Of a stretch of 64,000 nucleotides of DNA, positions 5,889-62,740 are shown in pieces. The position numbers and the translations under genes were made by a program. The first letter of the stretch is position 1. Every line of letters starts with the position of its first letter. The DNA is taken from IMG/VR virus record IMGVR_UViG_3300045999_007288, positions 1 through 64,000 of that record. One strand, given 5' to 3'. This DNA comes from a virus. Below the pieces are notes generated by a model. The model saw only the letters and a list, made by a program, of their open reading frames with translations. It did no database searches and was not told the DNA's origin.

Positions 5889-5897
5889 AAATTACTT

Positions 5898-5926: not shown

Positions 5927-5950
5927 ATAAGAATAAACAAGGAGTACTAA

Positions 5951-16515: not shown

Positions 16516-16942
16516 CGAGTTGTTCTACTATAACTTTACATTTGTTTAAAAATTCAACACCAGATGTATCACGATAAGCTTGCCCAAAATAAACTTTTTT
16601 TATTCCGCTTTGATAAATCAGTTTAGAGCATTCTATGCATGGTGCATGAGTAATAAACATTGTTGCTCCGTCTCCGCTTTCGCTACTTCGTGCTAATTTA
16701 CTGATGGCATTCGATTCGGCGTGGAGCACTTCTGGTTTTGTTTTTAATTCGTAGTCGCCTGTTTTATCCCAAACTTTATCTTCACAGTTGTTATCCCAAC
16801 CTGCAGGCATGCCGTTATAGCCAATGCTGATAATTCTATCATCTTTAACTACAATAGCACCAACATGCAGTCGTCGAGCATGACTGAGTTCAGCAAATAT
16901 TTTTGCAGTCTGCATGTATGCTTGGATTAATTTTTTCTTCAT
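16508..16942 (-). CDS. dCMP deaminase
   Basis: VGAIVV, IISIGYNG.P.G, HAESNAI, THAPCIEC Zn motif; ATG at 16942 is coupled to the upstream gene. Confidence 0.92.
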   Translation of the reverse strand: MKKKLIQAYMQTAKIFAELSHARRLHVGAIVVKDDRIISIGYNGMPAGWDNNCEDKVWDKTGDYELKTKPEVLHAESNAISKLARSSESGDGATMFITHAPCIECSKLIYQSGIKKVYFGQAYRDTSGVEFLNKCKVIVEQLDV

Positions 16943-17643: not shown

Positions 17644-17675
17644 ATTATAATTAATTGACATCAAATTGTCAATTA
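17644..17675 (-). promoter_or_regulatory. perfect sigma70 promoter overlapped by a 9-bp palindrome
   Basis: Minus strand TTGACA (17672-17667), 17 nt, TATAAT (17649-17644); inverted repeat TAATTGACA-6-TGTCAATTA 17652-17675. Confidence 0.75.
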
Positions 17676-17699: not shown

Positions 17700-17924
17700 T
17701 CAGTCTTTGTCTGTTACTATAACTGCAACTCGATCAACCCAGATCATTCTACCACGGCATGCTATATTCCATTTGGTTTCGCCGTGTTCGTGTGTACATT
17801 CTGTAAAAGTTTCCCCAACAATTCGAACATCTTTAGCTAAGTGTTCTACTCCGTTTTCAAATACACGCCAGACCAATTCACTGCCATTATGTTTAGTATT
17901 AAATCTGACGTGATATTTGTTCAT
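17700..17924 (-). CDS. small hypothetical protein
   Basis: ATGA-coupled; Y.VRFN...WRVFENG.E.L...WNIAC.G. Confidence 0.7.
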   Translation of the reverse strand: MNKYHVRFNTKHNGSELVWRVFENGVEHLAKDVRIVGETFTECTHEHGETKWNIACRGRMIWVDRVAVIVTDKD

Positions 17925-18712
17925 TTAAGTCCTAGTTCTTTTCTGATTTTAGTAGCAGAAATATCAGTGATAGATTCATCAAATGTTTCTTCACCAGCAG
18001 AATATCCCACACCACGACCCCATCCAATATGCACTATGTTAGGAACTACTTGTATTTCATATTGTCCTTGATACAATGGGTCTAAATCTCGACGGATAAA
18101 TGATTTCACTTTTTCTACTTCGAAGGGATTGGACCCTTGCCAGCCTTGTACATCACGGACTTGAATTATAACTTGGCCAGTGCGCTGTAGCAGTCTTTCA
18201 AATAATGCCCTGTGACCATCGTGCCAAGGTTGCCAACGCCCTAACATTTGTACCGTTTCTTTTTTCCAATCAAATACAGGCCGTCGACGATTGTCAATAA
18301 TGTGTTCAGCGATAAAATCTGCCCACTTAGCGGCATTCTGTTCATTAATTCGAAAATCATAAACTTCGGGCTCTACAAACATTTTATTAGTATCAGCGTA
18401 ACGACCTTCGCGTATAGTATCCACCCATACAGTCCAATCTGCTTTAAAATTGTTACGCATTTCTACTAATGGTGCAACAAAATCACATAGTGCATAATCT
18501 GTATGACATGACATCGACAAATCAAACATACGTTTACTTTGGCGAATTCTGCCAGCTTCGCTGAAATCCCAATCGTCAAATTGTTTTCTTACTTCGTCTG
18601 CGTTAAACCAAGTAACTGTTTTGCCATTGTCTTCCAATAACTTTTTTAATTCTGTTGCTAAGTAGGTTTTTCCTGCTCCAGGCAAGCCCATAATTAAAAT
18701 TCGTTGTGTCAT
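17921..18712 (-). CDS. adenylylsulfate-kinase-like P-loop domain fused to an HxGH nucleotidyltransferase domain
   Basis: GLPGAGKT, NADEVR, DFS..GR.RQ; C-terminal GRWQPWHDGH and ISATKIR. Confidence 0.8.
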   Translation of the reverse strand: MTQRILIMGLPGAGKTYLATELKKLLEDNGKTVTWFNADEVRKQFDDWDFSEAGRIRQSKRMFDLSMSCHTDYALCDFVAPLVEMRNNFKADWTVWVDTIREGRYADTNKMFVEPEVYDFRINEQNAAKWADFIAEHIIDNRRRPVFDWKKETVQMLGRWQPWHDGHRALFERLLQRTGQVIIQVRDVQGWQGSNPFEVEKVKSFIRRDLDPLYQGQYEIQVVPNIVHIGWGRGVGYSAGEETFDESITDISATKIRKELGLK

Positions 18713-20190
18713 GATAGTACCTTTACTCCATATAATTTTTCAAATCTATCAGCGTCCTTACGATCATTGACCATAGGTTCGCCTCGAATGTTCAGACTAG
18801 TATTTAATAGCATAGGGCAGCCTGTGACAATAAACCATTTCTCTAATAGTTCTCGTATACCTGACCCGTCCTTTGGTACAGTCTGAACACGACTAGTTCC
18901 GTCATGATGCACAATAGCAGGAAATAAGTCAGGATGCCTGCAAAGAGCGACTGATTGCATATACCTACTGCTACTGAAGCCACTGGGCATGCCAAAATAC
19001 TCGTTGGCAAACTCTTCCAAAATAACTGGTGCGAAGGGTCTGAATTTTTGTCTACGTTTAATTTCATTTACTCGATCTTTTATATCTGGTCCCCGGGGAT
19101 CGGCCAACAAGCTACGATTACCTAATGCTCTGGGGCCGAATTCAGCACGGCCACTGGCAATGCCAACAATACGATTAGCAATAAGCTCATCTAACGCAGC
19201 ATTAGTAGGGTAAGGTCCGGGAATATTGTGACCTAAGAAAGCATCGCGCCAATTAATCCTACCACCATAAGCCAGTGCAGCAGCACCCAAACTAGAACCT
19301 GCATCGCCAGGATTGGGCATTATCCATATATTATCAAAATAAGGACCTATTCTGCCGTTGGCCACACAATTAAGAGCAACCCCGCCCATATAAACTAAAT
19401 TTTTGCTCCAGTTAAAGTCTTTTGCTCTACGCATAACATTTAGTACAAGATCTTCTGTTAAGTCTTGTGCGCTGGCTGCAATATCCATATCTCCAACATA
19501 AGACAAATACTTTTCTTCTATGCCAGTATGAAGATTTTCTTTAAATTTAATTTCCCACTCATTATGTAAAAATTTAGACTTAAACAAATCAGTGAACGCA
19601 GGCGCACCATATGCTGCCATACCCATTAAAATGTATTCTTCTTCATTGGGTTTAAGTCCAACACGTTCTGTCATTGCACTGTAAAACAATCCTATACTAT
19701 GCGGATATTTTTGGCGCCATAATCTTTTATAAACGGCTTTTCCTTGAACATATTCTGCTGCCCAAATACTTATTGTGTCCCATTCCCCAATGGCGTCTAT
19801 CACAACCACTGTGGCTTTATTAAATGAGCTTGTTTGAAACCCTGCGGCTGCATGACATAGGTGATGATTATGGGTTGAAATCTTACCTGGAAATTTAGAA
19901 AATTCTTTGCCTATTTGCCTAGTAAGAATCTGTCGGGCAGTAAGTTTATTCCATTCAAGGCCCTGACCACTGTACAGTTGTCTTAACTGTTTATTCCATG
20001 GTCGTTCATAGTAAGCAACATGATCAATCCTATAATCAATTATTTCTTTGATTATACCAGGACTTAAATTTGGATCATTCTTAATTTTACTATAGCGTTC
20101 GCTGTGGCCCGCATATAATATATTTCCATAATTACCAATGACACTTATTGCAGCGTCATGAAATCCTGCAGATATTCCTAAAATATTCAT
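18709..20190 (-). CDS. carbamoyltransferase, NodU/CmcH/TobZ family
   Basis: ILGIS..HDAA, HH..HAA, DAIGE, E...MGMA.YG, GGVALN, GDAG, EFGPRALGNRS, KRRQ.FRPFAP, DGTSRVQTV, LLNTSLN. Confidence 0.93.
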   Translation of the reverse strand: MNILGISAGFHDAAISVIGNYGNILYAGHSERYSKIKNDPNLSPGIIKEIIDYRIDHVAYYERPWNKQLRQLYSGQGLEWNKLTARQILTRQIGKEFSKFPGKISTHNHHLCHAAAGFQTSSFNKATVVVIDAIGEWDTISIWAAEYVQGKAVYKRLWRQKYPHSIGLFYSAMTERVGLKPNEEEYILMGMAAYGAPAFTDLFKSKFLHNEWEIKFKENLHTGIEEKYLSYVGDMDIAASAQDLTEDLVLNVMRRAKDFNWSKNLVYMGGVALNCVANGRIGPYFDNIWIMPNPGDAGSSLGAAALAYGGRINWRDAFLGHNIPGPYPTNAALDELIANRIVGIASGRAEFGPRALGNRSLLADPRGPDIKDRVNEIKRRQKFRPFAPVILEEFANEYFGMPSGFSSSRYMQSVALCRHPDLFPAIVHHDGTSRVQTVPKDGSGIRELLEKWFIVTGCPMLLNTSLNIRGEPMVNDRKDADRFEKLYGVKVLS

Positions 20191-20288
20191 TTGTATATAA
20201 AAGGATCTTGCTTTCGTAATTCTTTGAGTCTGCGACGATAAGTGATTTCTAATTTAATTCTGTAGTATAAATTTTTAAGCCATGTCAT
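20187..20288 (-). CDS. 33-aa basic peptide MTWLKNLYYRIKLEITYRRRLKELRKQDPFIYK, absent from the ORF track
   Basis: Manually translated; its stop overlaps the carbamoyltransferase ATG (ATGA); TAAATA lies 5 nt upstream of its ATG. Confidence 0.7.
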   Translation of the reverse strand: MTWLKNLYYRIKLEITYRRRLKELRKQDPFIYK

Positions 20289-20292
20289 GATA

Positions 20293-21393
20293 TTATTTAT
20301 TGAGCAAACTACTGCTGTAATCGTAACCAGGTTTTAATCTTTCAATTTGTTGATCATAGTAGTCCTTATCTGACCAAGTATAAGAATATACAGAGCTCAA
20401 AATGTTTCCTGACCCATCATCGCATTGAATCGAATATATGTCTAAATAACACGATAGTATCGGCCAAACTTCACTGTATTTGATCGTCCCAAAACTTCTT
20501 TGTAGATCAACTTGACCCACTGAATGGTATCCGAAGTTGTATTGATTGTCTTCGGGGTCGAATCCGTTTCGTTCGAGCCATGATTTAAACCCAGACATTT
20601 CTTTGGTGTACCAAGGATGCGGCCCATTATAACATACATCCTGTGCCCATTCGATGTCAAATTCCCCGCTATAGTAACGTAGATGTGTAATAGCATCACA
20701 GGTAGCCTTGTCAATGTCAATGCCTTTTTCGTCTCGATACACTTCATATAACGTTTTACCGATTTGTGTCCAATGCAGATATACTTCCCCAAATTTTCGA
20801 TCATATCTGGATTCGTCAAAAGTAGTTTTATGTATTGCTGGAAATTCGTATCGTGCGGCGTTCAAAAATGTAGTAATTTGACTAGGTCTGACCCATTCTG
20901 GTAATGTTACTTTTTTACGTTGACTTAACATTAAACTCTCTGCTTCATGACATAAATTATTCAATTGTCTAATAGCAAATTTAGTTGTATAATCTGCCCG
21001 TTTATAATAATCACTGAGTCCCCATACAGTTCCTTGTAAAATCTCAAAATGATTGTGCAATTTGTTCATTAAATCCTGATTAGGATTTAATGTTTTAGGA
21101 TCCCGTAGAGTAAAAGGGTAAAAGTTTTCTTCTATTTTATATTCATCCCGAAAGAAATCATTTATTACATTCTTAACCCAATATAGTTCTTTACAAATAT
21201 ATTCTAAATCTCTTTGACTGTCGGGGAATCCTAAAAAGCAAAAGTTCTTTTCTAGATATTTGTGTTGCTGTACGATTTCTTGTAGTGCTGTAAACCATTG
21301 CTGAGCCATTTCGTGCTCGTAGACATCGATAATATAATCTAATGTTTTTGTTTTATCTAACGGATTGCGTAGTGTTACTATTACTTTATTCAA
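20293..21393 (-). CDS. hypothetical protein in the radical SAM cluster
   Basis: 366-aa ORF coupled to neighbours; NKLHNHFE..., QLNNLCHEAE, HW.QIGKT motifs. Confidence 0.7.
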   Translation of the reverse strand: MNKVIVTLRNPLDKTKTLDYIIDVYEHEMAQQWFTALQEIVQQHKYLEKNFCFLGFPDSQRDLEYICKELYWVKNVINDFFRDEYKIEENFYPFTLRDPKTLNPNQDLMNKLHNHFEILQGTVWGLSDYYKRADYTTKFAIRQLNNLCHEAESLMLSQRKKVTLPEWVRPSQITTFLNAARYEFPAIHKTTFDESRYDRKFGEVYLHWTQIGKTLYEVYRDEKGIDIDKATCDAITHLRYYSGEFDIEWAQDVCYNGPHPWYTKEMSGFKSWLERNGFDPEDNQYNFGYHSVGQVDLQRSFGTIKYSEVWPILSCYLDIYSIQCDDGSGNILSSVYSYTWSDKDYYDQQIERLKPGYDYSSSLLNK

Positions 21394-22675
21394 TTGAATT
21401 CCACCATTTTAATACTTCGGGTCTAGCTGAAAATATATCATGCATAGTATAGCTATCATTTCGAATTTGTTCAAGTTTTTCGATTCTTGCTTTTCCTTTA
21501 CGCAAGCCAAATTGATATCCATCGGGCCACTGTTCTTGAAATGTAGGTCTAGTTTTTAGCTGTACAAGTATATCCTTTAAGGCGCCGCCTACAGTGGGTA
21601 TAATTTCATCTATCCAAGGTTCTAATAGATCCCTGGGCAGTGATAAAGGTGACATAACTATGTCCGGGCTAAAACTAAAAATTACTTTCGCGAGAATATC
21701 GACTTTTTCTTCTTCTGCAAGTCGCTGGATACTAGCAACTTCGAACATGCCGGGCAAAGTGAGCGTAAAGTCAATTCGCATTTGACGTCGGTGACTAGCA
21801 ATTTTAGTTCCTTGACGGAAGTTCTCAAGCCATTCATTGTAGTTAAGGCCTGTTCTAATGTATTCGCCAATCGAGCCCGTGCCGTCGATGCTTGCACAAA
21901 TCTGCCAATCACGAAGCCTGCTGAGAATATCACTATAAAGATTGACACCTTTATAATTAATTCTTGATAAATTTGTATTATATCTAGCATAAACATTTGG
22001 CCCGTCTCCTAATTCTATAATCCTCTGCATGTAGCGCCAATGCTGTTCATACATAAGAGGTTCACCGCCAACCCAATATACTTCCTCTACGCGGTGTTCT
22101 TCGACGGCTTGACTAAACTCTGCCTCAATCTGTGTGTCTTGAAATTGTTCGATTTGTTTTTTGATTTCGGCTTGCATCCAATTATTCTTAGGATCATGCC
22201 AATTAACCATATTGTATTGACGTTGCTCGCTTTCCCATGCACTACTTAACATGTCTCCACACATGCGACATTTAAAATTACAAAGATTACTAAATCTGTA
22301 ATCCCAACTTACAGGCTTCATATCTGTCGAGCCGTCGGGCCGAGTCTTTTCCATCGCCTCATTGTACTTATTCCCAAACAAACTATTAAAATAACTACGG
22401 TAAACAGATGTGTTCAACAACTTATCATTACATACTTCACACTCGGGCAAAGTTTCTCCTGCTATCATACGGCGACGAACAGACTTCATATGTTCGCTGT
22501 TCCAATGTTCGTCCAACGTAACAGGTATATATTCTCCTGTGCCGTTAGTTGTGTCGATGTACTGTTTAAAATTCTGTGCGGGTTCGCGACTAGCGCAGCA
22601 TAATCTGCGTTCGGTCTGCGGACTTAAATATGTATGTGTCCAAGGGGCCATGCACAAAGTATCAGGTTTAATCAT
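21386..22675 (-). CDS. radical SAM enzyme with N-terminal twitch/SPASM domain (subtype A)
   Basis: CMAPW...LCC...CEVC; CNFKCRMC; GGEP; YNTNL. Confidence 0.9.
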   Translation of the reverse strand: MIKPDTLCMAPWTHTYLSPQTERRLCCASREPAQNFKQYIDTTNGTGEYIPVTLDEHWNSEHMKSVRRRMIAGETLPECEVCNDKLLNTSVYRSYFNSLFGNKYNEAMEKTRPDGSTDMKPVSWDYRFSNLCNFKCRMCGDMLSSAWESEQRQYNMVNWHDPKNNWMQAEIKKQIEQFQDTQIEAEFSQAVEEHRVEEVYWVGGEPLMYEQHWRYMQRIIELGDGPNVYARYNTNLSRINYKGVNLYSDILSRLRDWQICASIDGTGSIGEYIRTGLNYNEWLENFRQGTKIASHRRQMRIDFTLTLPGMFEVASIQRLAEEEKVDILAKVIFSFSPDIVMSPLSLPRDLLEPWIDEIIPTVGGALKDILVQLKTRPTFQEQWPDGYQFGLRKGKARIEKLEQIRNDSYTMHDIFSARPEVLKWWNSIE

Positions 22676-23873
22676 ATCCCATAGCCTTGGCTATTTCAGA
22701 GTGTGTATCCATAAAGTTCTGTTTTCTATATGTATCTGTGCGCTTCATATTGTTTATGAATACTTGCCCGTCACTGCCTGGGCCATTTTCGATAAATTTA
22801 ATTACATTCTCAATTTCTTGATGATGTTCTTTTGTATTCCAAAAAGTTGTTTTGAGTTTATTTAAAACTAATTCTCTGGCTGCGGGTGTTAATCGTTGAA
22901 TACTCATATGATCAGGGCTGTGTAACATATTAAAATAAATGCTGTCAAAAGGTTTGGTGCTTGCCCAAGCCAGTAACTCATCTAAGTAATATACATTTTG
23001 AATATTAATAGTGAAACAAAGTTGAGTAGTAATGTTAGGCGTGTCAACATCTCGTGCAAAATGAACTCCGTCGATTATTTCGTTGGCTTTATCCCAGTCT
23101 GCACCGTATCTTTCATATTCAAATCTCGCGCCAACATTGTCGATACTAAATGCAATATCTACACGACCGAAATGATTCCATAAATCTGATTTTTGTATGC
23201 CTAACCCGTTAATAGTTGCATTGGTATTATAATGAATATCAATATGTTTACTATGACCTGTAGCTACTGCATATCGCAGTAATTCCCAATGTTCTTCGAT
23301 TAACCAAGGTTCACCCCCAGTAAATTCAAAATACTTAATATTGGGCAGTAATGATTTTAAATTCTCCCAAAAATCAGGACTCTCTTCTGGCCACTTACCT
23401 TGTTTAAGCCAGGTATATGCAACATGTTTTTTCTTATCATGTCCTTGCGGCAAGTACTCTAATTCTTCTGCTGCCCACTTGCTACTGCTCCAGCTTCCAC
23501 ATATCCTGCACTTTAAATTACAAATGTTGCCTAGCTTTAAATCAATGAACCACAATTGATCAGGTACATCGTTTTGCCAATCAACCAATGGGTATAACTC
23601 CTTGAGTCTGACTTGGCTGTGAATACGTTTACTAGTCCTATTTGCTGCTTCCTCATCCCAGCATAATTTACAGGTATTTGGTTTTTCGCCGCGGCGGAAT
23701 TGTCTGCGTAAGTTTTGCATATACTCGCTGGTGTATGCATCTTGCAATGTATGTCTTCTAAGATCAATACCAGTAATATCTTCCCTTGCAAGACAACAAG
23801 GTCTTGCAGTACCCATGGGACTAGTCTCAATACTAATCCATGGCAGCATACAAATACTATTAGGTAGTGTCAT
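22668..23873 (-). CDS. radical SAM enzyme with N-terminal twitch/SPASM domain (subtype A)
   Basis: CMLPW...PCC...CKLC; CNLKCRIC; GGEP; YNTNA. Confidence 0.9.
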   Translation of the reverse strand: MTLPNSICMLPWISIETSPMGTARPCCLAREDITGIDLRRHTLQDAYTSEYMQNLRRQFRRGEKPNTCKLCWDEEAANRTSKRIHSQVRLKELYPLVDWQNDVPDQLWFIDLKLGNICNLKCRICGSWSSSKWAAEELEYLPQGHDKKKHVAYTWLKQGKWPEESPDFWENLKSLLPNIKYFEFTGGEPWLIEEHWELLRYAVATGHSKHIDIHYNTNATINGLGIQKSDLWNHFGRVDIAFSIDNVGARFEYERYGADWDKANEIIDGVHFARDVDTPNITTQLCFTINIQNVYYLDELLAWASTKPFDSIYFNMLHSPDHMSIQRLTPAARELVLNKLKTTFWNTKEHHQEIENVIKFIENGPGSDGQVFINNMKRTDTYRKQNFMDTHSEIAKAMGYD

Positions 23874-25207
23874 TTATTTTTTAACTCGCTTAATTCAGAA
23901 AATGTATTCCAAAAGTTTTCTCCCCTGAGATTATCAATTAAATTAATTTCTTGTTTAAATTTATCCCAGTGCTGTGAGCCGTTGGTGGCCATTAGAAAAT
24001 TAATAGCACTCTTAAATCCAGTTGTTGCACGTTTTAATGGGTCTTGTGGTTCTAACCATTCAATATGACGCTCGTATGCTGGTTTAATTACTTGCTCTTT
24101 AAATTCTTGAGAGAATATGTCAACTCTATACCATTCGGGACTTTGGCAAATATTAACGTTAAAGTCCTTGGGTTTAATAAATCCTAAATCAACCCACTCC
24201 TTATGAAAATCCAATACGTGAAGAACGTTCATTGCACTAATAGTAGATGCTATATAAAAATCTACGTGCGGCACTTCTTCTAACATGCGTTCACGATTAC
24301 GAACTGTTTGTTTCCAGTCTGTGCCTTTTCTCATTAATTCTGCTCTAGTCCCGCTGGCATCCAGACTAGCACCTACACCCACTGTTCTAAAGTGTTTCCA
24401 GTATTCAAATACGTGTTTGTCTTTGAATGCTAATTCGCTAAAGTTTGTATTGTACTGGATACATACGTCTGTTCGACCGGCTTCAATGAGTTTTTCTAAT
24501 AGATAATAGTGTTCCTTCATAATCAAAGGTTCGCCGCCTGCAAAATAGACTTGTTCCAAGTAGGGAATATGTTCTTCCATTTGTGCAATCATATAATCTT
24601 CGTCACCGGCAGCATATTCAATTCTGGCCAAATCTTTGCCGTTTACGTCAGGCACTCTATTGAATAATTTGACATGATCATTATACCAGTTACTGCTAAA
24701 AACAGGGCCGCACGTTCTGCAACGAAAATTACACAGATTACTAAATCTAACGTCCCAATATCTAATCTTAAATTCTGGATGAGTTCCATCTGGCAATGTT
24801 TTATCTACGTCTGCAATGTTATGTCCGTAACTACGATTAGCGTCATAGCGCATACTAAAGAATCCGTTTTCTTCTTGTTCATAACATTTGGTGCATTGTT
24901 TGACTGGCTGATCTGCCATCATTAAACGTCTGATCTCTTTATATCCTTCTTGATTCCAAACTTCTTGCATTGAATTCTTTTTTAAATTCCCAATTGGATG
25001 AAAATATTCTGCAAAACAACAAGGATACACACGACCATCCGGGTACGCATGTTGATGAACCCAGGGCAACATACAAAATGACTTACTATTAGTTAATCTA
25101 CTGATCTGTGTTTCTGTAAGGGAGTTTGAATCTATAAACAGTGGCTTTCGACTATTGTAGTCATAGCCACGTTTATAAAATCTATCAGTTTTTTTGTCTT
25201 CGCTCAT
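23870..25207 (-). CDS. radical SAM enzyme with N-terminal twitch/SPASM domain (subtype A)
   Basis: CMLPW..DGRVYPCC...CTKC; CNFRCRTC; GGEP; YNTNF. Confidence 0.92.
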   Translation of the reverse strand: MSEDKKTDRFYKRGYDYNSRKPLFIDSNSLTETQISRLTNSKSFCMLPWVHQHAYPDGRVYPCCFAEYFHPIGNLKKNSMQEVWNQEGYKEIRRLMMADQPVKQCTKCYEQEENGFFSMRYDANRSYGHNIADVDKTLPDGTHPEFKIRYWDVRFSNLCNFRCRTCGPVFSSNWYNDHVKLFNRVPDVNGKDLARIEYAAGDEDYMIAQMEEHIPYLEQVYFAGGEPLIMKEHYYLLEKLIEAGRTDVCIQYNTNFSELAFKDKHVFEYWKHFRTVGVGASLDASGTRAELMRKGTDWKQTVRNRERMLEEVPHVDFYIASTISAMNVLHVLDFHKEWVDLGFIKPKDFNVNICQSPEWYRVDIFSQEFKEQVIKPAYERHIEWLEPQDPLKRATTGFKSAINFLMATNGSQHWDKFKQEINLIDNLRGENFWNTFSELSELKNK

Positions 25208-26553
25208 AGTGTATTATACCAATCTGCTAATGCAGGAAATGTTTTGCAGAAGTCTTTTCCTCTGCGTTGATCGTATTGTGTGTAAAATTGTTTAAAATCG
25301 TTTTGTAATTTTGGCAATTCAAAAGAATCGCTGTGGGGTGTCTTAACAACATCCAAATAATCTATTAGACGCAGTACATGATTTATTTCGTGCTCGTGTA
25401 AGTAGTTATGCCCTTTATGGCGAACAACAAAATCAATTAGCCGATTACGATATTTTGTTTTAATGTCGTCTGGCAATATCAATGGACTTTGAAAACTAGG
25501 GAAACGTAAAATGTTTAATGTAAAATTAGGAAAGTCTCTTCCAAAGTCTTTCTTTAAATTAACCATTGTATCTAAGAAATCGGGTAATGTGTCTAAACAC
25601 AATGCATTGATCGTACACATCACATGCAATCTATAAAACTTTTTACTTTGTGTAAGTTTTATAACATGTTCTAACCATAGATTATAATTCAGTCCATCGC
25701 GAATATATTCTGCTTGATCATATTCGCTTTCGTTGCTAGTATATAAATCTATTTCAAGTCCATCTACACTGTCAATTAGTCTATCTATATCAACTTGATA
25801 TCCTAAATTACTGTTGATAGCAAGTCGAGTTTTACTACGGCCTTTATTTGCTTTAAACCAATCTAATAATTTCCAAGTTTCTGCACTCATCAGAGGTTCT
25901 CCACCAGTAATGCGTAATTCGTCTAATGTTTTATGGAGATCGCTTTCCCACCATTTATGGAATGCTTCAACGTATGGATTAGATTCGCCAAATTTATAAA
26001 GTTGTGAACTATCATGGGTGTGCGTAAAGTGATTTCTACCATCACTAACAAGATTATTATAGGGCCCGTTACGTTTAATATCGTTGACCCATGTACTACT
26101 AAAAGCAGGATTACAATAACTACAAGCAAACTGACAAGTTCTATCAAACGCGATTTCAAGAGTTTTAAGATCGAAATCTTCTCGAGCTGGTGTTCTATAT
26201 GCGCGGGCCAAGTCTTCATCATTGTAAATCACAGTTTTGTATACACGATCACTTACTGCATCTCGGCCCATGTCTTCAATCTTCCAGCAATACTCACAAC
26301 CAGATGGACGCTCACCTTTTTGCATTTGTTCGCGTTCCATCTTTTTCTTTTGAGTATTGTGTAATGCCTTAGGATTGTTGATCACATCATCTATTTCGAC
26401 TTTATGAGGCAATGGATGATGACAGCTAGTGGTCATACCGCTGCCTAACCATATAGTAGCATTATACCACTTAGCTCCGCAAAAAGATTTTGATTTAATA
26501 TCGATTACTCTACGTTTGTAATCTAAGTCTGTTTCATTGTTTAGTCTTGGCAT
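25204..26553 (-). CDS. radical SAM enzyme with N-terminal twitch-like domain (subtype B)
   Basis: CGAKW...SCHHP...CEYCW; CQFACSYC; TGGEP. Confidence 0.9.
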   Translation of the reverse strand: MPRLNNETDLDYKRRVIDIKSKSFCGAKWYNATIWLGSGMTTSCHHPLPHKVEIDDVINNPKALHNTQKKKMEREQMQKGERPSGCEYCWKIEDMGRDAVSDRVYKTVIYNDEDLARAYRTPAREDFDLKTLEIAFDRTCQFACSYCNPAFSSTWVNDIKRNGPYNNLVSDGRNHFTHTHDSSQLYKFGESNPYVEAFHKWWESDLHKTLDELRITGGEPLMSAETWKLLDWFKANKGRSKTRLAINSNLGYQVDIDRLIDSVDGLEIDLYTSNESEYDQAEYIRDGLNYNLWLEHVIKLTQSKKFYRLHVMCTINALCLDTLPDFLDTMVNLKKDFGRDFPNFTLNILRFPSFQSPLILPDDIKTKYRNRLIDFVVRHKGHNYLHEHEINHVLRLIDYLDVVKTPHSDSFELPKLQNDFKQFYTQYDQRRGKDFCKTFPALADWYNTL

Positions 26554-27574
26554 AGTTGTTAAATTTAGTTATAAAATCATTTATTAGTTGTTTATCCTCG
26601 CCGGGTGGTTGCGTGGATATCATTACATTCCTATTGTGTCTACAAATATCTTCGGCTTCATTTAAAAATTCTTCTAAATTAGAATTGCAAAGAAATTCTA
26701 TCACATCTACTATTCGATTTAATCGTTTATCGTTGTCGTCTATTAGATCAAACGATTCGTCTATTAGATGACCAAACGTTTTAAATCCTTGATTATGTAA
26801 ATCTTTATAGAATCCATAGTTTGCCGCTACTACAAATGGGTGTCCAATTTTAAGTGGCTTGTAAATTTTTTCTGTTCTGAAGCTATAGGGCAAATAAAAA
26901 TTTGTTTCTGTTACAACACTGAAATAAGAATCTTCAAAAATATTTGCAAATATTTGCCCGTCAGGCCAGTCGTTTAATTTATATTTTCCGTTTACTACAT
27001 TATCACTGTTGACTTGAAATTGGTAGTCTTTGGGCAAAAATTTATTGTCGTAGAGTGCAGACCATAAACTTCGTTCTAACAAATCTTTTTTATTTAATTT
27101 TTCTATCAGTAATGAACGATGAGATCTTTCTATCCCATTTAAAAAATTAAACAAAAAAGTTTTATTCCTTTTTAAAAAAATTTGATCAATTATCTTCGAA
27201 TCTCTTTGTTCGAGCTCAGTTGTTGTACGTCCTAAGATATACCTAAATATGTCTACTGTTATATGTGCTATATTCGAGGGCAAATCTCCCGACGACACGA
27301 TAAACGGTAGACGCACAAAATCATTCCATCCTAATGCGTTTAATGTATCTAATACTGTATTGGTACCTTCGTGTAGCATACTTAGTATAAACAAATTTTT
27401 GCTGTCCACAGAAATAATATTTTTTTTAATAATATTTCCTGTTAATAAAACAATACCATTGTCTGAAATTAAACTTTCTACTGTATCGTGCTCCACTACA
27501 TCAAAATAATCAGGATACCAATTAAAAAATTCTAAATTGTCGTTTTTTAACGAGTTAATTTTAATCTTTTGCAT
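26534..27574 (-). CDS. AT-rich hypothetical protein, possibly GT-B/GT10-like
   Basis: F.FLNG..R.HR and FSVVTET...RTEKIYKP...HPF...GFKTF...IDESFD, reminiscent of the E..TEK motif of GT10 enzymes. Confidence 0.45.
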   Translation of the reverse strand: MQKIKINSLKNDNLEFFNWYPDYFDVVEHDTVESLISDNGIVLLTGNIIKKNIISVDSKNLFILSMLHEGTNTVLDTLNALGWNDFVRLPFIVSSGDLPSNIAHITVDIFRYILGRTTTELEQRDSKIIDQIFLKRNKTFLFNFLNGIERSHRSLLIEKLNKKDLLERSLWSALYDNKFLPKDYQFQVNSDNVVNGKYKLNDWPDGQIFANIFEDSYFSVVTETNFYLPYSFRTEKIYKPLKIGHPFVVAANYGFYKDLHNQGFKTFGHLIDESFDLIDDNDKRLNRIVDVIEFLCNSNLEEFLNEAEDICRHNRNVMISTQPPGEDKQLINDFITKFNNYAKTKQ

Positions 27575-28706
27575 TTAAAAGATCCTTAACTTTGACAGGA
27601 AGAGTTATATTTTTTCTATCTTCCCATTGTTTTAAAAAATGTAAAAATTCTGAAAATAAAGTTTTATTAAATTTAGTTGAAGACAATATACTTAACACAA
27701 CATCAACATTCTTTATATTTTTATTATCTAACAACGTTAATAGCACAGTCTCTGCTTGTTTTTTAATGTTATCCGGAGTTGCTTCAATGCTTTGAATTCT
27801 GGGATGTTGACCATATGACAGTGCCCAATGAAAGTTATCTTTATATTTTTCTATTCTGGGCAGTATTACACCAGATGAAAAGTTTTCGATATCACAGAGA
27901 GTTAAATTAGTCATCAAACTCAATATATTAATTTTGATATTTTCTTCACTACGTTCTAATAGATAGTCCAAATTTTTCAAAAATAAATCATAATCAAGTC
28001 CATACCTAACAAATTCTGATATTTCCTTGCAAGAATCTAAACTGACATTTATTACAATGTATTTAAATTTATTTCTATTAGATAGTAGTTTATCAATTGA
28101 TGTTTTATCGACCATTAAATTTGAAGTTACATCTAAAATTCCTTTATGGTCTATTGTATCTAAGATATTAAAAAAATTTTTATTTATTAATGGCTCGCCA
28201 CCTATTATTCTCAAAGTTTCAAATTTTAGAGTGTTTAACAATTTTAAATTTTCGACCACTAATTGTTTATTTTTAATATCAACACTGTAGATATGTCGAT
28301 CTGTAAACAATTGATATTTTTGATTTTGTACGTCCTTTTCCCATTGACTGCTAAACTTTGGATTACAATATATGCATTGCATATTGCAAGCATTGCCAAC
28401 ATTAATTTCAATTACCTTAGGCGATTTATTATTTTTATATTCATCGAATGTTGATACTTCAAATTTTTCTAAAAACTGAGTTCTGAGGCTGGTGCCGTTT
28501 GTTTTTTCAGAATTCCAACAGTAAGAACAACTGGAATCTTGCACATTGTTTAATAAATTTTGTTTTTGATGATCGATAATTTTGTTGTAATCGTCGACAA
28601 ATTTTTCCGGTCTTGCTTTACAACAACCATACACATAATTATAACTAGTATTAATGACTAATTCGTCCCATTTAGCCGGACAAAAAGTGTTAGGTAGTTG
28701 TTGCAT
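27561..28706 (-). CDS. radical SAM enzyme (subtype B-like, AT-rich, divergent)
   Basis: CPAKW...GCC...CSYCW; CNMQCIYC; GGEP; TSNL. Confidence 0.88.
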   Translation of the reverse strand: MQQLPNTFCPAKWDELVINTSYNYVYGCCKARPEKFVDDYNKIIDHQKQNLLNNVQDSSCSYCWNSEKTNGTSLRTQFLEKFEVSTFDEYKNNKSPKVIEINVGNACNMQCIYCNPKFSSQWEKDVQNQKYQLFTDRHIYSVDIKNKQLVVENLKLLNTLKFETLRIIGGEPLINKNFFNILDTIDHKGILDVTSNLMVDKTSIDKLLSNRNKFKYIVINVSLDSCKEISEFVRYGLDYDLFLKNLDYLLERSEENIKINILSLMTNLTLCDIENFSSGVILPRIEKYKDNFHWALSYGQHPRIQSIEATPDNIKKQAETVLLTLLDNKNIKNVDVVLSILSSTKFNKTLFSEFLHFLKQWEDRKNITLPVKVKDLLNAKD

Positions 28707-30087
28707 AATATTTGCATTCCTTCCAAAAATCTACCATTTCTGGAAATGCCAAAATAAAGTTAGTGCCGCGGCGGCGATCATGTTCATTGAAAAATTTATA
28801 AAAATTTGCTTTTTGCATTTTAACATAATCAGGATCTAATTTGCTACCTTCTCTCATCCAATCAATGACTCTTTGTAAACGTTGAACTTCATAATCTTTG
28901 AAACCGTGAAACGGAGTCTCAGGTTGCTCCATTTTTGTAATCATAAAACTCCATGACATTTCTAAGTTATCTATATAACTTTCTGGTAATAGTTGTAAGC
29001 TTTGCCATTCTGGTTTACGAAGAATCGGAGTATCAAACCACACACGCTGATACGTTTTACTGTGTATTTGTCTGAGTCCTAATATACAACCTAGTAAATT
29101 TTGAAGGCCGGCCACATTTAAATTATTCATAGTAATTATAAATGTTAAACTACTACGATTGGGCACTTCATATAAAAATCTGTTGACGTTATCCCAAAAT
29201 CTTTCAAAATTTAATCCATGTCTGATATATTCGGCCTGTAGAAAAGTGGCATCTATACTAACATACTGCATGAAATGCTCAATTTTTTTATCTTCATTGC
29301 TGCACAATCGTTTCACATAATCTAAGTATTTTTCAAACAATGCAGGGTCAACGCTGAAATTAGAAGTCACATTTAAATGTAGTTTTGGATTAGGATTTTC
29401 CAATACATAATCAAATACACGATATGTATTCTTATCCATGAGAGGCTCTCCGCCAGTCATTCTGAAATGTTCCAATTCTGGATATAGCGTAGGCCACCAA
29501 GACCAGAACGCATCAACATAAGGATTATCTTCCCTTGCAGGAATAACTTTTCTTTCTCCAGTAAAATGACTGGGGTCGTTGTGCAGTGGGCTTGTGGGAA
29601 AAGCGCCATTACGTTCTACTTCACTGGCCCAACTACTAGAGTATTGGGGGCTGCAATAACTGCAAGATAAGTTGCAAGCATTATTGAAATTGACTTCTAC
29701 GTAGGAAGGAAGCACATCCTCGTCTCCAGTGGAATTAACTATTTTTTCAAAATCTTTTGTTGCCCACGGCTCTCCACTACGATAATGTCGATCGCTTAAA
29801 TTGCCCAAATCTTCTTGTGTCCAACAATAACTACATTCTTGTGGGCGCTCATTATGCAGCATAATCTTACGCTGTTCTTTTTTGTAAGGAGTGTTATGCA
29901 ATGCACCAGGATTATCTTTTAATAGTGTTGAATCTATTTTATGTAAAGGTGGGTGATAGCAACTGTTATTAAGTCCCGTCGGTAAATGTAAGCTAACTTG
30001 TTTCCATTTGGCCAAACAAAGTGCAGGACCTAATTTAGATTTTGCGTCTTCCGCAGAATTTAAAAATACGCTTTTAGACATTACCAA
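28690..30087 (-). CDS. radical SAM enzyme with N-terminal twitch-like domain (subtype B)
   Basis: CLAKW...SCYHP...CSYCW; CNLSCSYC; TGGEP; TSNF. The ATG at 30081 may be the true start. Confidence 0.9.
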   Translation of the reverse strand: MVMSKSVFLNSAEDAKSKLGPALCLAKWKQVSLHLPTGLNNSCYHPPLHKIDSTLLKDNPGALHNTPYKKEQRKIMLHNERPQECSYCWTQEDLGNLSDRHYRSGEPWATKDFEKIVNSTGDEDVLPSYVEVNFNNACNLSCSYCSPQYSSSWASEVERNGAFPTSPLHNDPSHFTGERKVIPAREDNPYVDAFWSWWPTLYPELEHFRMTGGEPLMDKNTYRVFDYVLENPNPKLHLNVTSNFSVDPALFEKYLDYVKRLCSNEDKKIEHFMQYVSIDATFLQAEYIRHGLNFERFWDNVNRFLYEVPNRSSLTFIITMNNLNVAGLQNLLGCILGLRQIHSKTYQRVWFDTPILRKPEWQSLQLLPESYIDNLEMSWSFMITKMEQPETPFHGFKDYEVQRLQRVIDWMREGSKLDPDYVKMQKANFYKFFNEHDRRRGTNFILAFPEMVDFWKECKYYATTT

Positions 30088-60966: not shown

Positions 60967-61848
60967 ATGAAATCAAACTACTTAAATAATAAAGATATTC
61001 TTAAAGAGATACACAAAAGCAAAAATTCATACTGCTCATTTATTAGCCCAGACGTTGCAGATTATGATATGATTCTGCCAGACGTTAAGAAAATTAACAA
61101 AAAAAATATCTTAGATGCTCGTAAGTTAAGAGCAGAAAGATTAAGTAAATTGGCACACGAAGCTGCCGTGGCAGCCACTGGAGAAAAGCAAAAAGCTGAT
61201 CAATTTGAAATCAAATATACTAAAATTCCCCAAACTGAAGTAGTCTTTCGAATTATGACATGGGAACACATACCACTAGATGACGTTAAAACTAAAAAAG
61301 CCAAAGACGCAGCCAAAGAATTATTCGACGACGAAGACGAAACTTCTCATACTGAATACGATGAAGATGATCCTAAACACAACAAATACGTTAAAGTTAA
61401 CTTCCCGCCGTTTTTTCATTACAAAGTAGATGAAGAAGGCAACCCTATTCTAGTAGGCAAAAGTCATTGGTCGGGAGAATTAGATACTGGTTCGTTTAAT
61501 AGAGATCACGGAGCAATGACTAACAAACTAGCTCACATGTTTATGAAACTGTGTGAACGTTATGCAACTAGAAGTAATTGGAGAGGTTATACTTATAACG
61601 ACGAAATGAGAAGTCAAGCCTTGCTACAGCTCAGCCAAATTGGACTTCAATTCGACGAATCGAAATCACAGAACCCTTTTGCTTATTATACTGCCGCTAT
61701 CACTAATAGCTTCACTCGTGTGCTAAACATCGAAAAACGCAATCAAAACTTACGTGACGACATTTTAGAAATGAACAATCTCAATCCAAGCTACACTAGA
61801 CAAGGATTGAGTTCTGGTGGAGGAGGCTCTAACTTTTACGATGAGTAA
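60967..61848 (+). CDS. gp55: late-transcription sigma factor (T4 gp55-like)
   Basis: NYLNNKD.L, NWRGYTY.DEM, F.....NPFAYYT....NSF.R....EK; directly upstream of gp47/gp46 as in T4-like phages; AAAGGA RBS before ATG 60967. Confidence 0.8.
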   Translation: MKSNYLNNKDILKEIHKSKNSYCSFISPDVADYDMILPDVKKINKKNILDARKLRAERLSKLAHEAAVAATGEKQKADQFEIKYTKIPQTEVVFRIMTWEHIPLDDVKTKKAKDAAKELFDDEDETSHTEYDEDDPKHNKYVKVNFPPFFHYKVDEEGNPILVGKSHWSGELDTGSFNRDHGAMTNKLAHMFMKLCERYATRSNWRGYTYNDEMRSQALLQLSQIGLQFDESKSQNPFAYYTAAITNSFTRVLNIEKRNQNLRDDILEMNNLNPSYTRQGLSSGGGGSNFYDE

Positions 61849-62740
61849 CAAAATGGCAGTTTTAAATATAACCGAATCGACATTTGACTTCAATAATGTT
61901 GACCCGTACAGTAAATTATTAATTTCCGGAGACAAAATCATTGACAATAACTATAACTATCATACTTCAATGGCAGATATGACTTCTGAAGAAATTTTAA
62001 ATATTGCCAATCAATTTGAATCTATAAATTTTGTCTCGCAAGGGTTTGACACAACATCAGATGCCTACAAAGAATCGTTAATGTTGATAAGTGTATTGTG
62101 TCACAAAAAACTTGTTACAGGGTATGAGCCACCGCCTATTACTCAATTTTTATCAATAGACGTTACCGATCGCCCAGATACTCCGGTACTCTGGGTATTT
62201 GGATGTAGTCATAGTCACGGCGTTGGGCTAAAATCTGACGAGAAAAATTTTGGCCAGATAGTTGCAGATGTATTAAAAATTCCGTTGTTAAACATTACTC
62301 AGCCAGGTTCTAGTCTAAATTGGAGTTTTAGACATTTAATTAATGCCGACATTAGGCCCGGCGATCGTGTTATATGGCAAATCACTACTCCACATCGATT
62401 GAGTGTATTTACCAACGGTCGTGTAACAGAAGTTGTATTAAACAACACATTAAATAGGTGTTTGCTCGATGTTAATAATGATGATCAAGTATTTTTCAAT
62501 CATGTCAATCTGTTAACTTCTGGAGTTAGATATCTAAGGGCAATAAAGAATCAATTTTTGTTAACTGACCTTACTAGCCGCACTTGTTGTAATTTTTACA
62601 AATATAAATTGGAATATTCAAAATATCCCGAATATGTGTATCATCCAACCCTATATCTTGATTACGGGTCAGATAGAGTACATGCTGGTCCTTTGAGCCA
62701 CAAGGCTCTTGCTCAACGTATACTAGATTGTGTATACTAA
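61841..62740 (+). CDS. SGNH-hydrolase-like protein
   Basis: Block I-like FGCSHSHG, PGSS, C-terminal D..HAG..SH; inserted between gp55 and gp47. Confidence 0.55.
   Translation: MSNKMAVLNITESTFDFNNVDPYSKLLISGDKIIDNNYNYHTSMADMTSEEILNIANQFESINFVSQGFDTTSDAYKESLMLISVLCHKKLVTGYEPPPITQFLSIDVTDRPDTPVLWVFGCSHSHGVGLKSDEKNFGQIVADVLKIPLLNITQPGSSLNWSFRHLINADIRPGDRVIWQITTPHRLSVFTNGRVTEVVLNNTLNRCLLDVNNDDQVFFNHVNLLTSGVRYLRAIKNQFLLTDLTSRTCCNFYKYKLEYSKYPEYVYHPTLYLDYGSDRVHAGPLSHKALAQRILDCVY

What the first reader, a model, noticed from the sequence alone, without database searches (positions are those of the whole stretch)
20187..20299. Hidden 33-aa peptide gene coupled to the carbamoyltransferase under its own late promoter
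MTWLKNLYYRIKLEITYRRRLKELRKQDPFIYK starts 5 nt after a TAAATA motif and its stop overlaps the carbamoyltransferase ATG. It is amphipathic and basic with a DPFIY tail, which recalls the small FIY-ending peptides found beside bacterial NodU-type carbamoyltransferases. It could be an accessory or membrane-tethering subunit, a translational coupler, or a RiPP-like substrate for the adjacent SPASM/twitch rSAMs. The late promoter points to carbamoylation during assembly.
Basis: partly seen in the sequence, partly recalled or inferred. Interest (0 to 1): 0.7.

Follow-up and report, generated by a model that had tools for sequence, protein, structure and literature searches.

The report
Tyrosine-tailed microprotein partner of phage carbamoyltransferase
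The 33-codon gene is real and belongs to a very large, uncatalogued family of tiny basic phage proteins ending in ...DPFIY(K) that travel with carbamoyl-adding enzymes. It probably works with that enzyme through its invariant tail tyrosine, but it has no promoter of its own and is unlikely to be a radical-SAM peptide substrate.

Summary
The ORF exists as described, on the minus strand at 20187-20288. Its TGA overlaps the carbamoyltransferase (CT) ATG.

**Real gene.** 74 of 80 related phage CT loci carry it. A peptide-first scan found it in 117 of 120 further viral contigs. A profile search found 280 clusters (50% identity) among 1.84 billion proteins. Invariant residues are written with 2-5 synonymous codons. 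Pfam, NCBIfam and PHROGs have no model for it, and no searchable paper contains "DPFIY".

**Anatomy.** AF2 predicts one helix (residues 2-27, net charge +7) followed by a free tail, D-P-F-I-Y-K. Tyr32 is the only invariant residue family-wide.

**Partner.** A CT lies within 2.5 kb in 85% of peptide-first loci, against 30% for rSAMs and 23% for SGNH-like (DUF6071) genes. In this lineage, SGNH-like genes flank the peptide in 52 of 80 loci, and one natural SGNH-peptide fusion exists.

**Closest known.** Bacterial DUF5989/SxtK proteins (tail APFIYTLF) sit beside CTs, but only the PFIY tail aligns. FIY(xxF) matches the DltX/PatA acyl-shuttle motif.

**Best reading (inferred).** A CT partner whose tail tyrosine accepts or relays the carbamoyl group.

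**Not supported.** An own late promoter, significant amphipathicity, and the RiPP reading.

The scan has flagged this family before in other genomes.

The parts
20187..20288 (-). 33-aa microprotein gene (stop codon included)
   Evidence: Searches show the ORF. It is conserved in 74 of 80 CT-first loci and 117 of 120 peptide-first viral loci. Purifying selection at codon level. 280 cluster representatives at E<=1e-3.
20208..20285 (-). Residues 2-27: a single basic alpha-helix. The family-wide conserved core is (I/L)KxExxYRK+LKEL+K+.
   Evidence: AF2 with an 81-sequence alignment gives helix 2-27 at mean pLDDT 90. Net charge of the whole peptide is +7. Y17 and L24 are invariant and R18, K20, L21, E23, K26 and R27 are at least 90% conserved, i.e. 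8 of the 11 residues 17-27.
20190..20207 (-). Residues 28-33: free C-terminal tail D-P-F-I-Y-K with the invariant tyrosine (Tyr32)
   Evidence: No secondary structure in the AF2 model. Y32 is the only invariant column in the 81-sequence family alignment. This is the only segment that aligns with the DUF5989 profile.
20187..20190 (-). ATGA overlap: the peptide's stop and the carbamoyltransferase's start (translational coupling)
   Evidence: The same A|TGA overlap with the next gene occurs in 109 of 173 distinct family genes, and a start lies within 12 nt in 42 more.
18709..20190 (-). NodU/CmcH-type carbamoyltransferase, 493 aa: the peptide's dominant genomic partner
   Evidence: Pfam Carbam_trans_N 1.3e-39 and Carbam_trans_C 1.7e-46. 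A CT lies within 2.5 kb of the peptide in 40 of 47 peptide-first loci. Peptide-linked CTs cluster in the CT tree.
20293..21393 (-). Upstream 366-aa gene of unknown family. Its last codons (…AAT AAA TAA) make up the 'TAAATA' motif.
   Evidence: No Pfam, NCBIfam or PHROG hit. Syntenic rSAM1-up366 pair across this lineage.
21386..30087 (-). Six N-terminal-twitch radical SAM paralogues with one 346-aa gene interposed. These are lineage-specific neighbours, not the peptide's core partner.
   Evidence: All six match NCBIfam NF033640 above its cut-off. An rSAM is present near only 30% of peptide-first loci.
61817..62740 (+). Distant SGNH-like ORF (FGCSHSHG…, …HAGPLSH). It is the only candidate relative in this record of the DUF6071-type genes that flank the peptide in other phages.
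   Evidence: A custom HMM built from phage SGNH-like proteins gives E 3.6e-12. Sequence. No Pfam hit. This link is weak.

Best explanation
SHOWN. The ORF is a translated gene for a soluble 33-residue microprotein. It consists of one basic helix (residues 2-27) and a free six-residue tail, D-P-F-I-Y-K. It belongs to a very large phage-restricted family that is inherited together with one branch of NodU/CmcH-type carbamoyltransferases. It is usually co-translated with the next gene through an ATGA overlap.

INFERRED. The conserved helix docks the microprotein on the carbamoyltransferase. In most relatives it may also dock on a flanking SGNH-like (DUF6071) enzyme. The flexible tail delivers the invariant Tyr32 hydroxyl to the enzyme's active site. 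There Tyr32 is O-carbamoylated from the enzyme-bound carbamoyl-adenylate. The resulting aryl carbamate is an activated carbamoyl donor. It is handed either to the Ser nucleophile of an SGNH-type transferase or directly to the final acceptor, probably a sugar or glycan built by the surrounding operon.

This would be a soluble, carbamoyl-carrying counterpart of the DltX/PatA 'acyl-shuttle' tyrosine. It would also parallel HypF carbamoylating the C-terminal residue of HypE.
For: **Real gene.**
- Found in 74 of 80 CT-first loci and 117 of 120 peptide-first loci.
- Invariant residues use 2-5 synonymous codons.
- 280 clusters among 1.84e9 proteins.
- Gene callers have called it, always as 'hypothetical protein'.

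**CT partnership.**
- A CT lies within 2.5 kb in 40 of 47 loci chosen by the peptide alone.
- The peptide sits directly before the CT, or directly after it in the '...FIYNH' subfamily.
- On the CT tree the peptide label needs 5 changes, against 19.8 for shuffled labels (0 of 500 shuffles as low). Peptide-free cyanophage CTs fall outside the main clade.

**Tyrosine tail.**
- Y32 is the only invariant column of 81 diverse members.
- The tail is unstructured after a confident helix.
- Tyr is the penultimate or last residue in 161 (93%) of 173 genes.

**Motif.**
- The bacterial CT-linked DUF5989 tail is FIYTLF, which fits FxYxxF.
- A few phage members end in FIYKNF or FIYKSF.
- PMC12148441 shows that the Tyr of FxYxxF (FIYANF in N. 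gonorrhoeae PatA; also in DltX) carries the acyl group covalently to an SGNH enzyme.

**SGNH link.**
- DUF6071/SGNH-like genes flank the peptide in 52 of 80 lineage loci.
- Of 43 such proteins, 37 keep a G(D/C)S motif and 29 an HP-type motif.
- L102 is a natural fusion of an SGNH-like protein to the peptide tail.

**Precedent in the CT superfamily.** HypF carbamoylates the C-terminal Cys of the PRIC motif of HypE (PMC12130793, abstract).

**Chemistry (own knowledge).** Aryl carbamates readily carbamoylate serine hydrolases.
Against: - There is no experimental or structural evidence for any contact or covalent adduct. A complex could not be modelled with the tools available.
- The window's tail is FIYK-stop, so it lacks the final 'xxF' of the shuttle hexapeptide.
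- There is no membrane segment and no MBOAT partner, so the DltX/PatA setting is not reproduced.
- SGNH-like genes are absent within 2.5 kb in 77% of peptide-first loci. They are also absent beside the peptide in this window, where only a distant SGNH-like ORF lies 41 kb away.
- 15% of peptide-first loci have no CT within 2.5 kb. In some the peptide precedes an rSAM or a 346-aa-type gene.
- Near-total conservation of residues 17-27 is explained equally well by a purely non-covalent subunit.
- hhalign finds no homology to DUF5989 beyond 5 columns (probability 43%).
Confidence: 0.4

Rival explanations
1. Non-covalent accessory subunit. The helix and tail bind the carbamoyltransferase as a small structural, activating or specificity subunit, or as an adaptor that bridges it to other pathway enzymes. 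The tyrosine is a binding residue and not a carrier.
For: The same CT linkage and co-translation apply. Eight of the 11 residues 17-27 are conserved, which suggests the helix is enclosed by a partner. Most loci have no SGNH gene nearby. The module is occasionally fused as a C-terminal tail to other enzymes, an SGNH-like protein and a GatZ/KbaZ-like protein, as a docking tag would be.
Against: It does not explain why Tyr alone is invariant while F30 can be Y or H and I31 can be L, V, N, D or E. It also does not explain why the tail matches the covalent acyl-shuttle motif and recurs beside SGNH-fold genes (PMC12148441).
Confidence: 0.3
2. RiPP-like or cofactor precursor. The peptide is the substrate of the adjacent twitch radical SAM enzymes, in the manner of PqqA or MftA with their C-terminal Tyr chemistry, with or without carbamoylation.
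For: Six rSAM genes lie directly upstream in this window. The peptide is ultra-conserved with a near-C-terminal Tyr, as in PqqA and MftA (own knowledge).
Against: Only 14 of 47 peptide-first loci have any rSAM within 2.5 kb, whereas 40 of 47 have a CT. The rSAMs are NF033640 N_Twi_rSAM, not a known peptide-maturase family, and no RRE or peptidase partner was seen. The peptide also occurs fused to enzymes.
Confidence: 0.05
3. Purely cis-acting leader or coupler ORF. Translating it serves only to load ribosomes onto the downstream gene, or to stall them there, and the peptide has no function in trans.
For: ATGA overlap with the next gene in 63% of genes. No Shine-Dalgarno sequence in the window. 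The strongly conserved C-terminal residues are reminiscent of arrest peptides (own knowledge).
Against: The family also lies after the CT, before unrelated genes, as tandem duplicates and as C-terminal fusions. Selection acts on the full 22-residue module across 280 clusters, which is far more than coupling needs.
Confidence: 0.05
4. Basic helix that targets a polyanion, either membrane phospholipid or nucleic acid, and so localises the CT. This includes the first reader's membrane-tether idea.
For: Net charge is +7. The bacterial analogue DUF5989 is a membrane protein with a hydrophobic helix. A few phage members carry an N-terminal hydrophobic stretch (L101 and L133).
Against: The hydrophobic moment is not above that of shuffled sequences. 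The window's peptide has no hydrophobic segment. Residue-specific conservation exceeds what simple electrostatic binding needs.
Confidence: 0.1

Closest known systems
DUF5989 (Pfam PF19451, the SxtK type) with SxtJ (PF19588) beside bacterial O-carbamoyltransferases (sxtI-sxtJ-sxtK)
   Same: Both are small proteins (about 50 aa against 33 aa) encoded directly beside a NodU/CmcH-type carbamoyltransferase. Both have a conserved C-terminal P-F-I-Y motif. Both are of unknown function (PMC2885083, PMC2679770).
   Different: There is no Pfam match even at E<=10, and hhalign aligns only 5 columns. DUF5989 has a hydrophobic transmembrane helix and the longer tail APFIYTLF, and an SxtJ membrane protein lay beside the one tested. 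The phage peptide is a charged soluble helix ending in DPFIYK with no SxtJ nearby. It is restricted to phage-type contigs: 11 hits in 185,579 species genomes, all on MAG contigs carrying the phage module.
DltX and the C-terminal FxYxxF 'acyl-shuttle' motif of bacterial MBOATs (PatA: FIYANF), which feed SGNH transferases (DltD, PatB)
   Same: Both have a microprotein or C-terminal tail with an invariant Tyr in an F-x-Y context. SGNH-fold genes recur next door (52 of 80 lineage loci). The first three residues, FIY, are identical to those of PatA (PMC12148441).
   Different: The group carried would be carbamoyl, not acyl. The donor enzyme would be a cytoplasmic ATP-dependent CT, not an MBOAT. There is no membrane span. 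The window's tail stops one residue after Tyr, so the full hexapeptide is absent. Covalent chemistry has not been tested.
HypF-HypE (carbamoylation of the C-terminal Cys of the HypE 'PRIC' tail)
   Same: By established knowledge of the family, HypF is related to these carbamoyltransferases (it has YrdC-like and Kae1-like domains) and carbamoylates the C-terminal residue of a partner protein (PMC12130793). The tail pattern P-x-I-(C/Y) is similar.
   Different: HypE is a 330-aa ATP-dependent enzyme, not a microprotein. Its acceptor is a Cys thiol. There is no sequence relationship, so this is an analogy only.
Peptide-derived cofactor precursors PqqA and MftA with rSAM-SPASM maturases
   Same: Both are short, highly conserved peptides with a functional Tyr near the C-terminus, and rSAM genes lie nearby in this window.
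   Different: The rSAM linkage is weak (30%). The rSAMs belong to another family (NF033640). The dominant partner is the CT.

Membership tests
DUF5989 / SxtK (Pfam PF19451) | Match to the Pfam model above its 27-bit cut-off | tested here: not met
   No Pfam family even at E<=10, whereas genuine members score 28-92 bits. hhalign between the two family profiles aligns only 5 columns at probability 43%.
DUF5989 / SxtK (Pfam PF19451) | Central hydrophobic transmembrane helix after a basic N-terminal segment | tested here: not met
   The window's peptide is a charged helix with no hydrophobic run. All 87 distinct sampled bacterial members have the run.
DUF5989 / SxtK (Pfam PF19451) | C-terminal P-F-I-Y motif | tested here: met
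   DPFIYK against APFIYTLF; these are the aligned columns.
DUF5989 / SxtK (Pfam PF19451) | Encoded beside a NodU/CmcH-type carbamoyltransferase, typically with SxtJ | tested here: inconclusive
   CT adjacency is met. No SxtJ (PF19588) was found among 20 neighbouring proteins scanned.
DltX / MBOAT acyl-shuttle motif (FxYxxF) | C-terminal hexapeptide F-x-Y-x-x-F | tested here: not met
   The window ends F-I-Y-K-stop. In the family, 142 of 173 genes end in K after Tyr, and the full hexapeptide (FIYKNF or FIYKSF) is seen in 2 of these 173 genes and a few other members.
DltX / MBOAT acyl-shuttle motif (FxYxxF) | Membrane microprotein or MBOAT C-terminus with an MBOAT donor | tested here: not met
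   No transmembrane segment. No MBOAT among the Pfam-scanned neighbours.
DltX / MBOAT acyl-shuttle motif (FxYxxF) | Partner SGNH-fold transferase | tested here: inconclusive
   SGNH-like DUF6071 genes flank the peptide in 52 of 80 lineage loci, and one is fused to it. None is adjacent in this window, where only a distant SGNH-like ORF lies at 61817-62740.
DltX / MBOAT acyl-shuttle motif (FxYxxF) | Covalent acyl-tyrosine (here carbamoyl-tyrosine) intermediate | not testable with these tools
   Needs mass spectrometry of the peptide co-expressed with the CT.
RiPP / peptide-cofactor precursor (PqqA and MftA type) | Obligate co-occurrence with a peptide-modifying rSAM maturase | tested here: not met
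   An rSAM lies within 2.5 kb in 14 of 47 peptide-first loci. The window's rSAMs are NF033640 N_Twi_rSAM and score far below the cut-offs of the peptide-maturase models.
T4-type late promoter | TATAAATA about 6-8 nt upstream of a transcription start, with the motif enriched before late genes | tested here: not met
   The site is AATAAATA and lies inside the upstream gene's last codons. TATAAATA occurs 2 times against 10.5 expected, and TAAATA 62 times against 117 expected. The motif is not conserved in relatives.
Phage '...YRK+LKEL+K+DPFIY' microprotein family (uncatalogued; defined here by profile A1/A2) | A 27-60 aa protein with the conserved basic helix module and a D-P-(F/Y/H)-x-Y tail within 4 residues of the C-terminus | tested here: met
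   The window's peptide is the first row of A1 and A2. It is 55-91% identical to 41 lineage members, and the profile finds 280 clusters.

The most novel reading that the evidence does not exclude
The microprotein is a soluble carbamoyl carrier. The carbamoyltransferase O-carbamoylates its tail tyrosine, and the aryl carbamate is passed to an SGNH-type transferase or straight to a glycan acceptor. This would be a new 'carbamoyl-tyrosine shuttle'. It would extend the DltX/PatA acyl-tyrosine principle from membrane MBOAT systems to cytoplasmic ATP-dependent carbamoyltransferases. By implication it would also explain the bacterial SxtK/DUF5989 (FIYTLF) and SxtJ companions, which have been unexplained since 2008.
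Probability: 0.3. Interest if true: 0.85.

Novelty: new variant of a known kind. Interest (0 to 1): 0.62.

Why it matters
Small proteins are systematically missed in phage annotation. This one is unannotated even in the complete genome of Ralstonia phage RsoM2USA. Yet it is among the most conserved genes of a widespread phage tailoring operon.

The family offers a short, soluble and easily synthesised handle on an old open question: what do the small SxtK/DUF5989-type companions of O-carbamoyltransferases do? They are still listed as 'unknown' in saxitoxin gene-cluster papers.

If the tail tyrosine carries the carbamoyl group, this would be a new covalent-carrier mechanism for carbamoylation. 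It would also show that the DltX/PatA tyrosine-shuttle principle is more general. If the peptide is only a docking subunit, it still marks which phage carbamoyltransferases work in a multi-enzyme complex. Its coupling to the CT also needs to be kept in mind when the enzyme is expressed heterologously.

Tried and rejected
- **Family libraries.** Pfam, NCBIfam and PHROGs scans of the peptide gave no credible hit.
- **tblastn against cultured phages.** The window's peptide recovered only RsoM2USA at E=1, and a 40-aa family member recovered nothing relevant. The low-complexity filter probably masks the basic region.
- **The look-up of encoding contigs.** Contexts were obtained instead by a degenerate DNA pattern scan.
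- **Cultured cyanophage and pelagiphage CT loci** (S-TIM4, P-SSM2, Mosig, C48C1). No such peptide lies near the CT.
- **ESM Atlas.** It returned only unnamed 33-aa clusters.
- **Homology to DUF5989.** Rejected as not detectable.
- **Late promoter.** Rejected.
- **Amphipathic membrane helix.** Not significant.
- **Expression.** No RNA holder was listed for the stretch.
- **Co-folding peptide and CT.** The idea was to read through a natural in-frame stop. Only 1-4-residue spacers exist (L056, L088, L152, L173). That tether is too short for an unbiased model, and the tool returns no contacts, so this was not run.
- **Second copy.** None was found in the 74-kb record.
- **Literature.** No paper contains 'DPFIY', 'DUF5989', or 'acyl shuttle' together with carbamoyltransferase.
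Full report
**1. Observation.**
The ORF is on the minus strand. Its ATG is at 20288-20286 and its TGA at 20189-20187. It encodes 33 aa, MTWLKNLYYRIKLEITYRRRLKELRKQDPFIYK. The stop shares the tetranucleotide ATGA with the start (20190-20188) of a 493-aa NodU/CmcH-type carbamoyltransferase (CT). The CT matches Pfam Carbam_trans_N at 1.3e-39 and Carbam_trans_C at 1.7e-46. The upstream 366-aa gene (20293-21393) ends 4 nt before the peptide's ATG. The window is part of a 74-kb IMG/VR virus record from lake water. Related contigs reach 374 kb, which is jumbo-phage size.

**2. Is it a gene?**
Yes, for four reasons.
- I fetched 80 viral loci through the CT alone (66-90% identical CTs). Of these, 74 carry the peptide. 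The consensus is MNWLKNLYNRIxLEIRYRKKLKELRKRDPFIYK.
- Among 55 distinct nucleotide versions of the 33-codon form, Y17, L24, D28, P29, F30, I31 and Y32 never change, although each is written with 2-5 synonymous codons. Identity by codon position is 0.77 / 0.87 / 0.57. That is selection on the protein.
- It is also present, unannotated, in the complete genome of Ralstonia phage RsoM2USA (…IRKQDPFIYK). In marine virus AG-345-D19 it appears as …LRKSDPYIYEE abutting the CT.
- A profile of the family found 280 cluster representatives (50% identity) at E<=1e-3 among 1.84 billion proteins. Nearly all are 27-60 aa. Gene callers have called it, always as 'hypothetical protein'.

No Pfam, NCBIfam or PHROG model covers it. 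No searchable paper contains 'DPFIY'.

**3. Anatomy.**
AF2 with an 81-sequence alignment gives one helix (residues 2-27) and an unstructured tail (residues 28-33), at mean pLDDT 90. Net charge is +7. The hydrophobic moment is not above that of shuffled sequences for the window's peptide, and is only marginal (p about 0.06) for the first 11-15 residues of the consensus. 'Basic' therefore holds and 'amphipathic' does not.

In the lineage alignment, eight of the 11 residues 17-27 are at least 90% conserved. That fits a helix held by a specific partner. In the broad family alignment the N-terminal half is free to vary. The module (I/L)KxExxYRK+LKEL+K+DPFIY is kept, and Tyr32 is the only invariant column. 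F30 may be Y or H, and I31 may be L, V, N, D or E. After the Tyr, 142 of 173 distinct genes have a single Lys, 4 have nothing, and a few have NH, KNH, KNF or KSF.

**4. What does it travel with?**
I sampled loci by the peptide alone, using a degenerate DNA pattern for E-L-x-K-x-D-P-F-I-Y on IMG/VR. This gave 120 loci, 117 of which contain the ORF. Among the 47 with at least 2.5 kb on both sides:

| Neighbour within 2.5 kb | Share of loci |
|---|---|
| Carbamoyltransferase | 85% |
| Radical SAM | 30% |
| SGNH-like protein | 23% |
| Homologue of the upstream 366-aa gene | 19% |

The peptide usually sits directly before the CT. In a subfamily ending '…FIYNH' it sits directly after it. Its stop overlaps the next gene's ATG in 109 of 173 genes, and a start follows within 12 nt in 42 more. 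It is therefore normally co-translated with whatever follows.

On a CT tree, the label 'peptide nearby' needs 5 changes, against 19.8 for shuffled labels (0 of 500 as low). The peptide-free CTs of S-TIM4, P-SSM2 and Mosig branch outside the main peptide-bearing clade.

In the window's own lineage the usual order is rSAM1 - 366-aa gene - SGNH-like - peptide - SGNH-like - CT. SGNH-like ORFs are present in 52 of 80 loci. They match Pfam DUF6071 above its cut-off and GDSL weakly. Of 43 such proteins, 37 keep a G(D/C)S motif and 29 an HP-type motif. The window and its closest relatives (L005, L006, L009) have lost those two genes, which brings the peptide against the CT. The record holds only a distant SGNH-like ORF at 61817-62740 (custom HMM E 3.6e-12).

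Two natural fusions exist among 202 occurrences. One is an SGNH-like protein carrying the module as its C-terminal tail (L102). The other is a GatZ/KbaZ-like domain carrying it directly before a CT (L189).

In 185,579 species genomes the peptide was found 11 times. All hits are on MAG contigs that carry the same phage module. The family is therefore phage-restricted as far as this scan can tell.

**5.
The recollection is correct. In 91 of these a CT lies beside the small ORF. The five small ORFs tested are Pfam DUF5989 (PF19451), and the one neighbouring gene tested is SxtJ (PF19588). That matches the sxtI-sxtJ-sxtK arrangement, whose small genes are still listed as 'unknown' (PMC2679770, PMC2885083).

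A profile-profile comparison of the two families aligns only the five columns (D/A)PFIY, at probability 43%. DUF5989 also has a transmembrane helix that the phage peptide lacks. The window's peptide is therefore not a member of DUF5989. It shares with DUF5989 a tail motif and a genomic partner.

**6. Mechanism.**
Two precedents make the invariant tail tyrosine more than a binding residue.
- The C-terminal hexapeptide FxYxxF of DltX and of bacterial MBOATs (FIYANF in N. gonorrhoeae PatA) carries the acyl group covalently on its Tyr and hands it to an SGNH enzyme (PMC12148441). The DUF5989 tail FIYTLF fits that motif exactly. The phage tail keeps F-I-Y, and a few members keep FIYKNF or FIYKSF.
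- By established knowledge of the family, HypF is related to these CTs, and it carbamoylates the C-terminal Cys of the PRIC tail of HypE (PMC12130793).

My best reading is that the helix docks on the CT and the tail presents Tyr32 for O-carbamoylation. The aryl carbamate then serves as donor to an SGNH-type transferase or to the final acceptor. This is inference, and I put it at about 0.4.

The main rival is a purely non-covalent subunit or adaptor (0.3). It explains the conserved helix and the many loci without an SGNH gene equally well. A polyanion- or membrane-targeting helix (0.1), an rSAM substrate (0.05) and a purely cis-acting coupler ORF (0.05) fit the distribution data poorly.

**7. 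Claims not supported.**
- *'Own late promoter'.* TATAAATA occurs twice in 64 kb against 10.5 expected, and TAAATA 62 times against 117 expected. The hexamer is coding sequence of the upstream gene. More distant relatives have a Shine-Dalgarno-like sequence at that place (72% of genes). The gene sits inside a tightly packed co-directional array. Nothing can therefore be said about timing, and 'carbamoylation during assembly' has no basis.
- *rSAM family.* The six neighbouring rSAMs are NF033640 N_Twi_rSAM, a family with no assigned reaction.

**8. Novelty.**
The family is absent from the libraries and literature that I could search. Earlier notes of this scan have flagged it in many other genomes, and several follow-ups reached similar conclusions. 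I re-derived the CT linkage, the DUF5989 comparison and the SGNH association independently here. I took the DltX/PatA lead from one of those notes and checked it against the paper and the tail statistics.

I class it as a new, soluble phage variant of the CT-companion microproteins. It is a good experimental handle on their unknown function.

**Limits.**
- No RNA run holds the stretch.
- No complex could be modelled.

Noticed in passing
window 17644-17672 (-): A perfect sigma-70 consensus promoter (TTGACA, 17 nt, TATAAT; 12 of 12 matches) lies in the 65-nt gap before the 231-aa gene at 16939-17634. It is the only full match in 17.5-23 kb and a more plausible internal promoter than the TAAATA motif.
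   Followed up: no
window 21386-30087 (-): All six radical SAM genes match NCBIfam NF033640 (N_Twi_rSAM, twitch domain N-terminal to the rSAM core) at 195-399 bits. No reaction is assigned to this family.
   Followed up: partly
window 17921-18712 (-): This 263-aa protein has an APS-kinase-like P-loop N-terminal half (residues 5-91) and a C-terminal half (153-224) with weak hits to NMN-adenylyltransferase-type nucleotidyltransferases. It is a conserved neighbour downstream of the CT in this lineage.
   Followed up: partly
window 14845-16515 (-): This 556-aa protein has no family hit, but it is the most frequent gene directly after the CT across distant phages (28-89% identity), so it is probably part of the same pathway.
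   Followed up: partly
L219-L338 (metagenome loci): The bacterial DUF5989 tail FIYTLF fits the FxYxxF acyl-shuttle hexapeptide of DltX/PatA exactly. In the one locus examined in detail (L290) the gene order is CT - SxtJ (multi-pass membrane protein) - DUF5989. This suggests a DltX-like tyrosine shuttle in bacterial carbamoylation systems. No searchable paper mentions 'acyl shuttle' together with carbamoyltransferase.
   Followed up: partly
L208-L218 (genome contigs): Eleven MAG contigs labelled Haliscomenobacter, Legionellales, Polynucleobacter, Pacearchaeota, Neomarinimicrobiota and others carry the phage rSAM / 366-aa gene / SGNH / peptide / CT module. Some are 148-335 kb long. They are probably jumbo-phage contigs binned with bacteria.
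   Followed up: partly
L002:5819-7211 (Marine virus AG-345-D19, MH319727.1): The CT reading frame is split (5819-5926 and 5871-7211). This is an apparent frameshift in the single-cell assembly.
   Followed up: no
P0002 (75 aa) and L189:5793-6869(-): Variant architectures of the module occur. One is two tandem copies in a single ORF. The other is a GatZ/KbaZ-like domain (Pfam PF08013, 4.2e-09) with the module as its C-terminal tail directly before a CT.
   Followed up: partly
window 36837-50858 (-): A single 4673-aa ORF, followed upstream by ORFs of 1137, 718 and 929 aa. These are presumably giant virion or tail-fibre proteins next to the tailoring operon.
   Followed up: no
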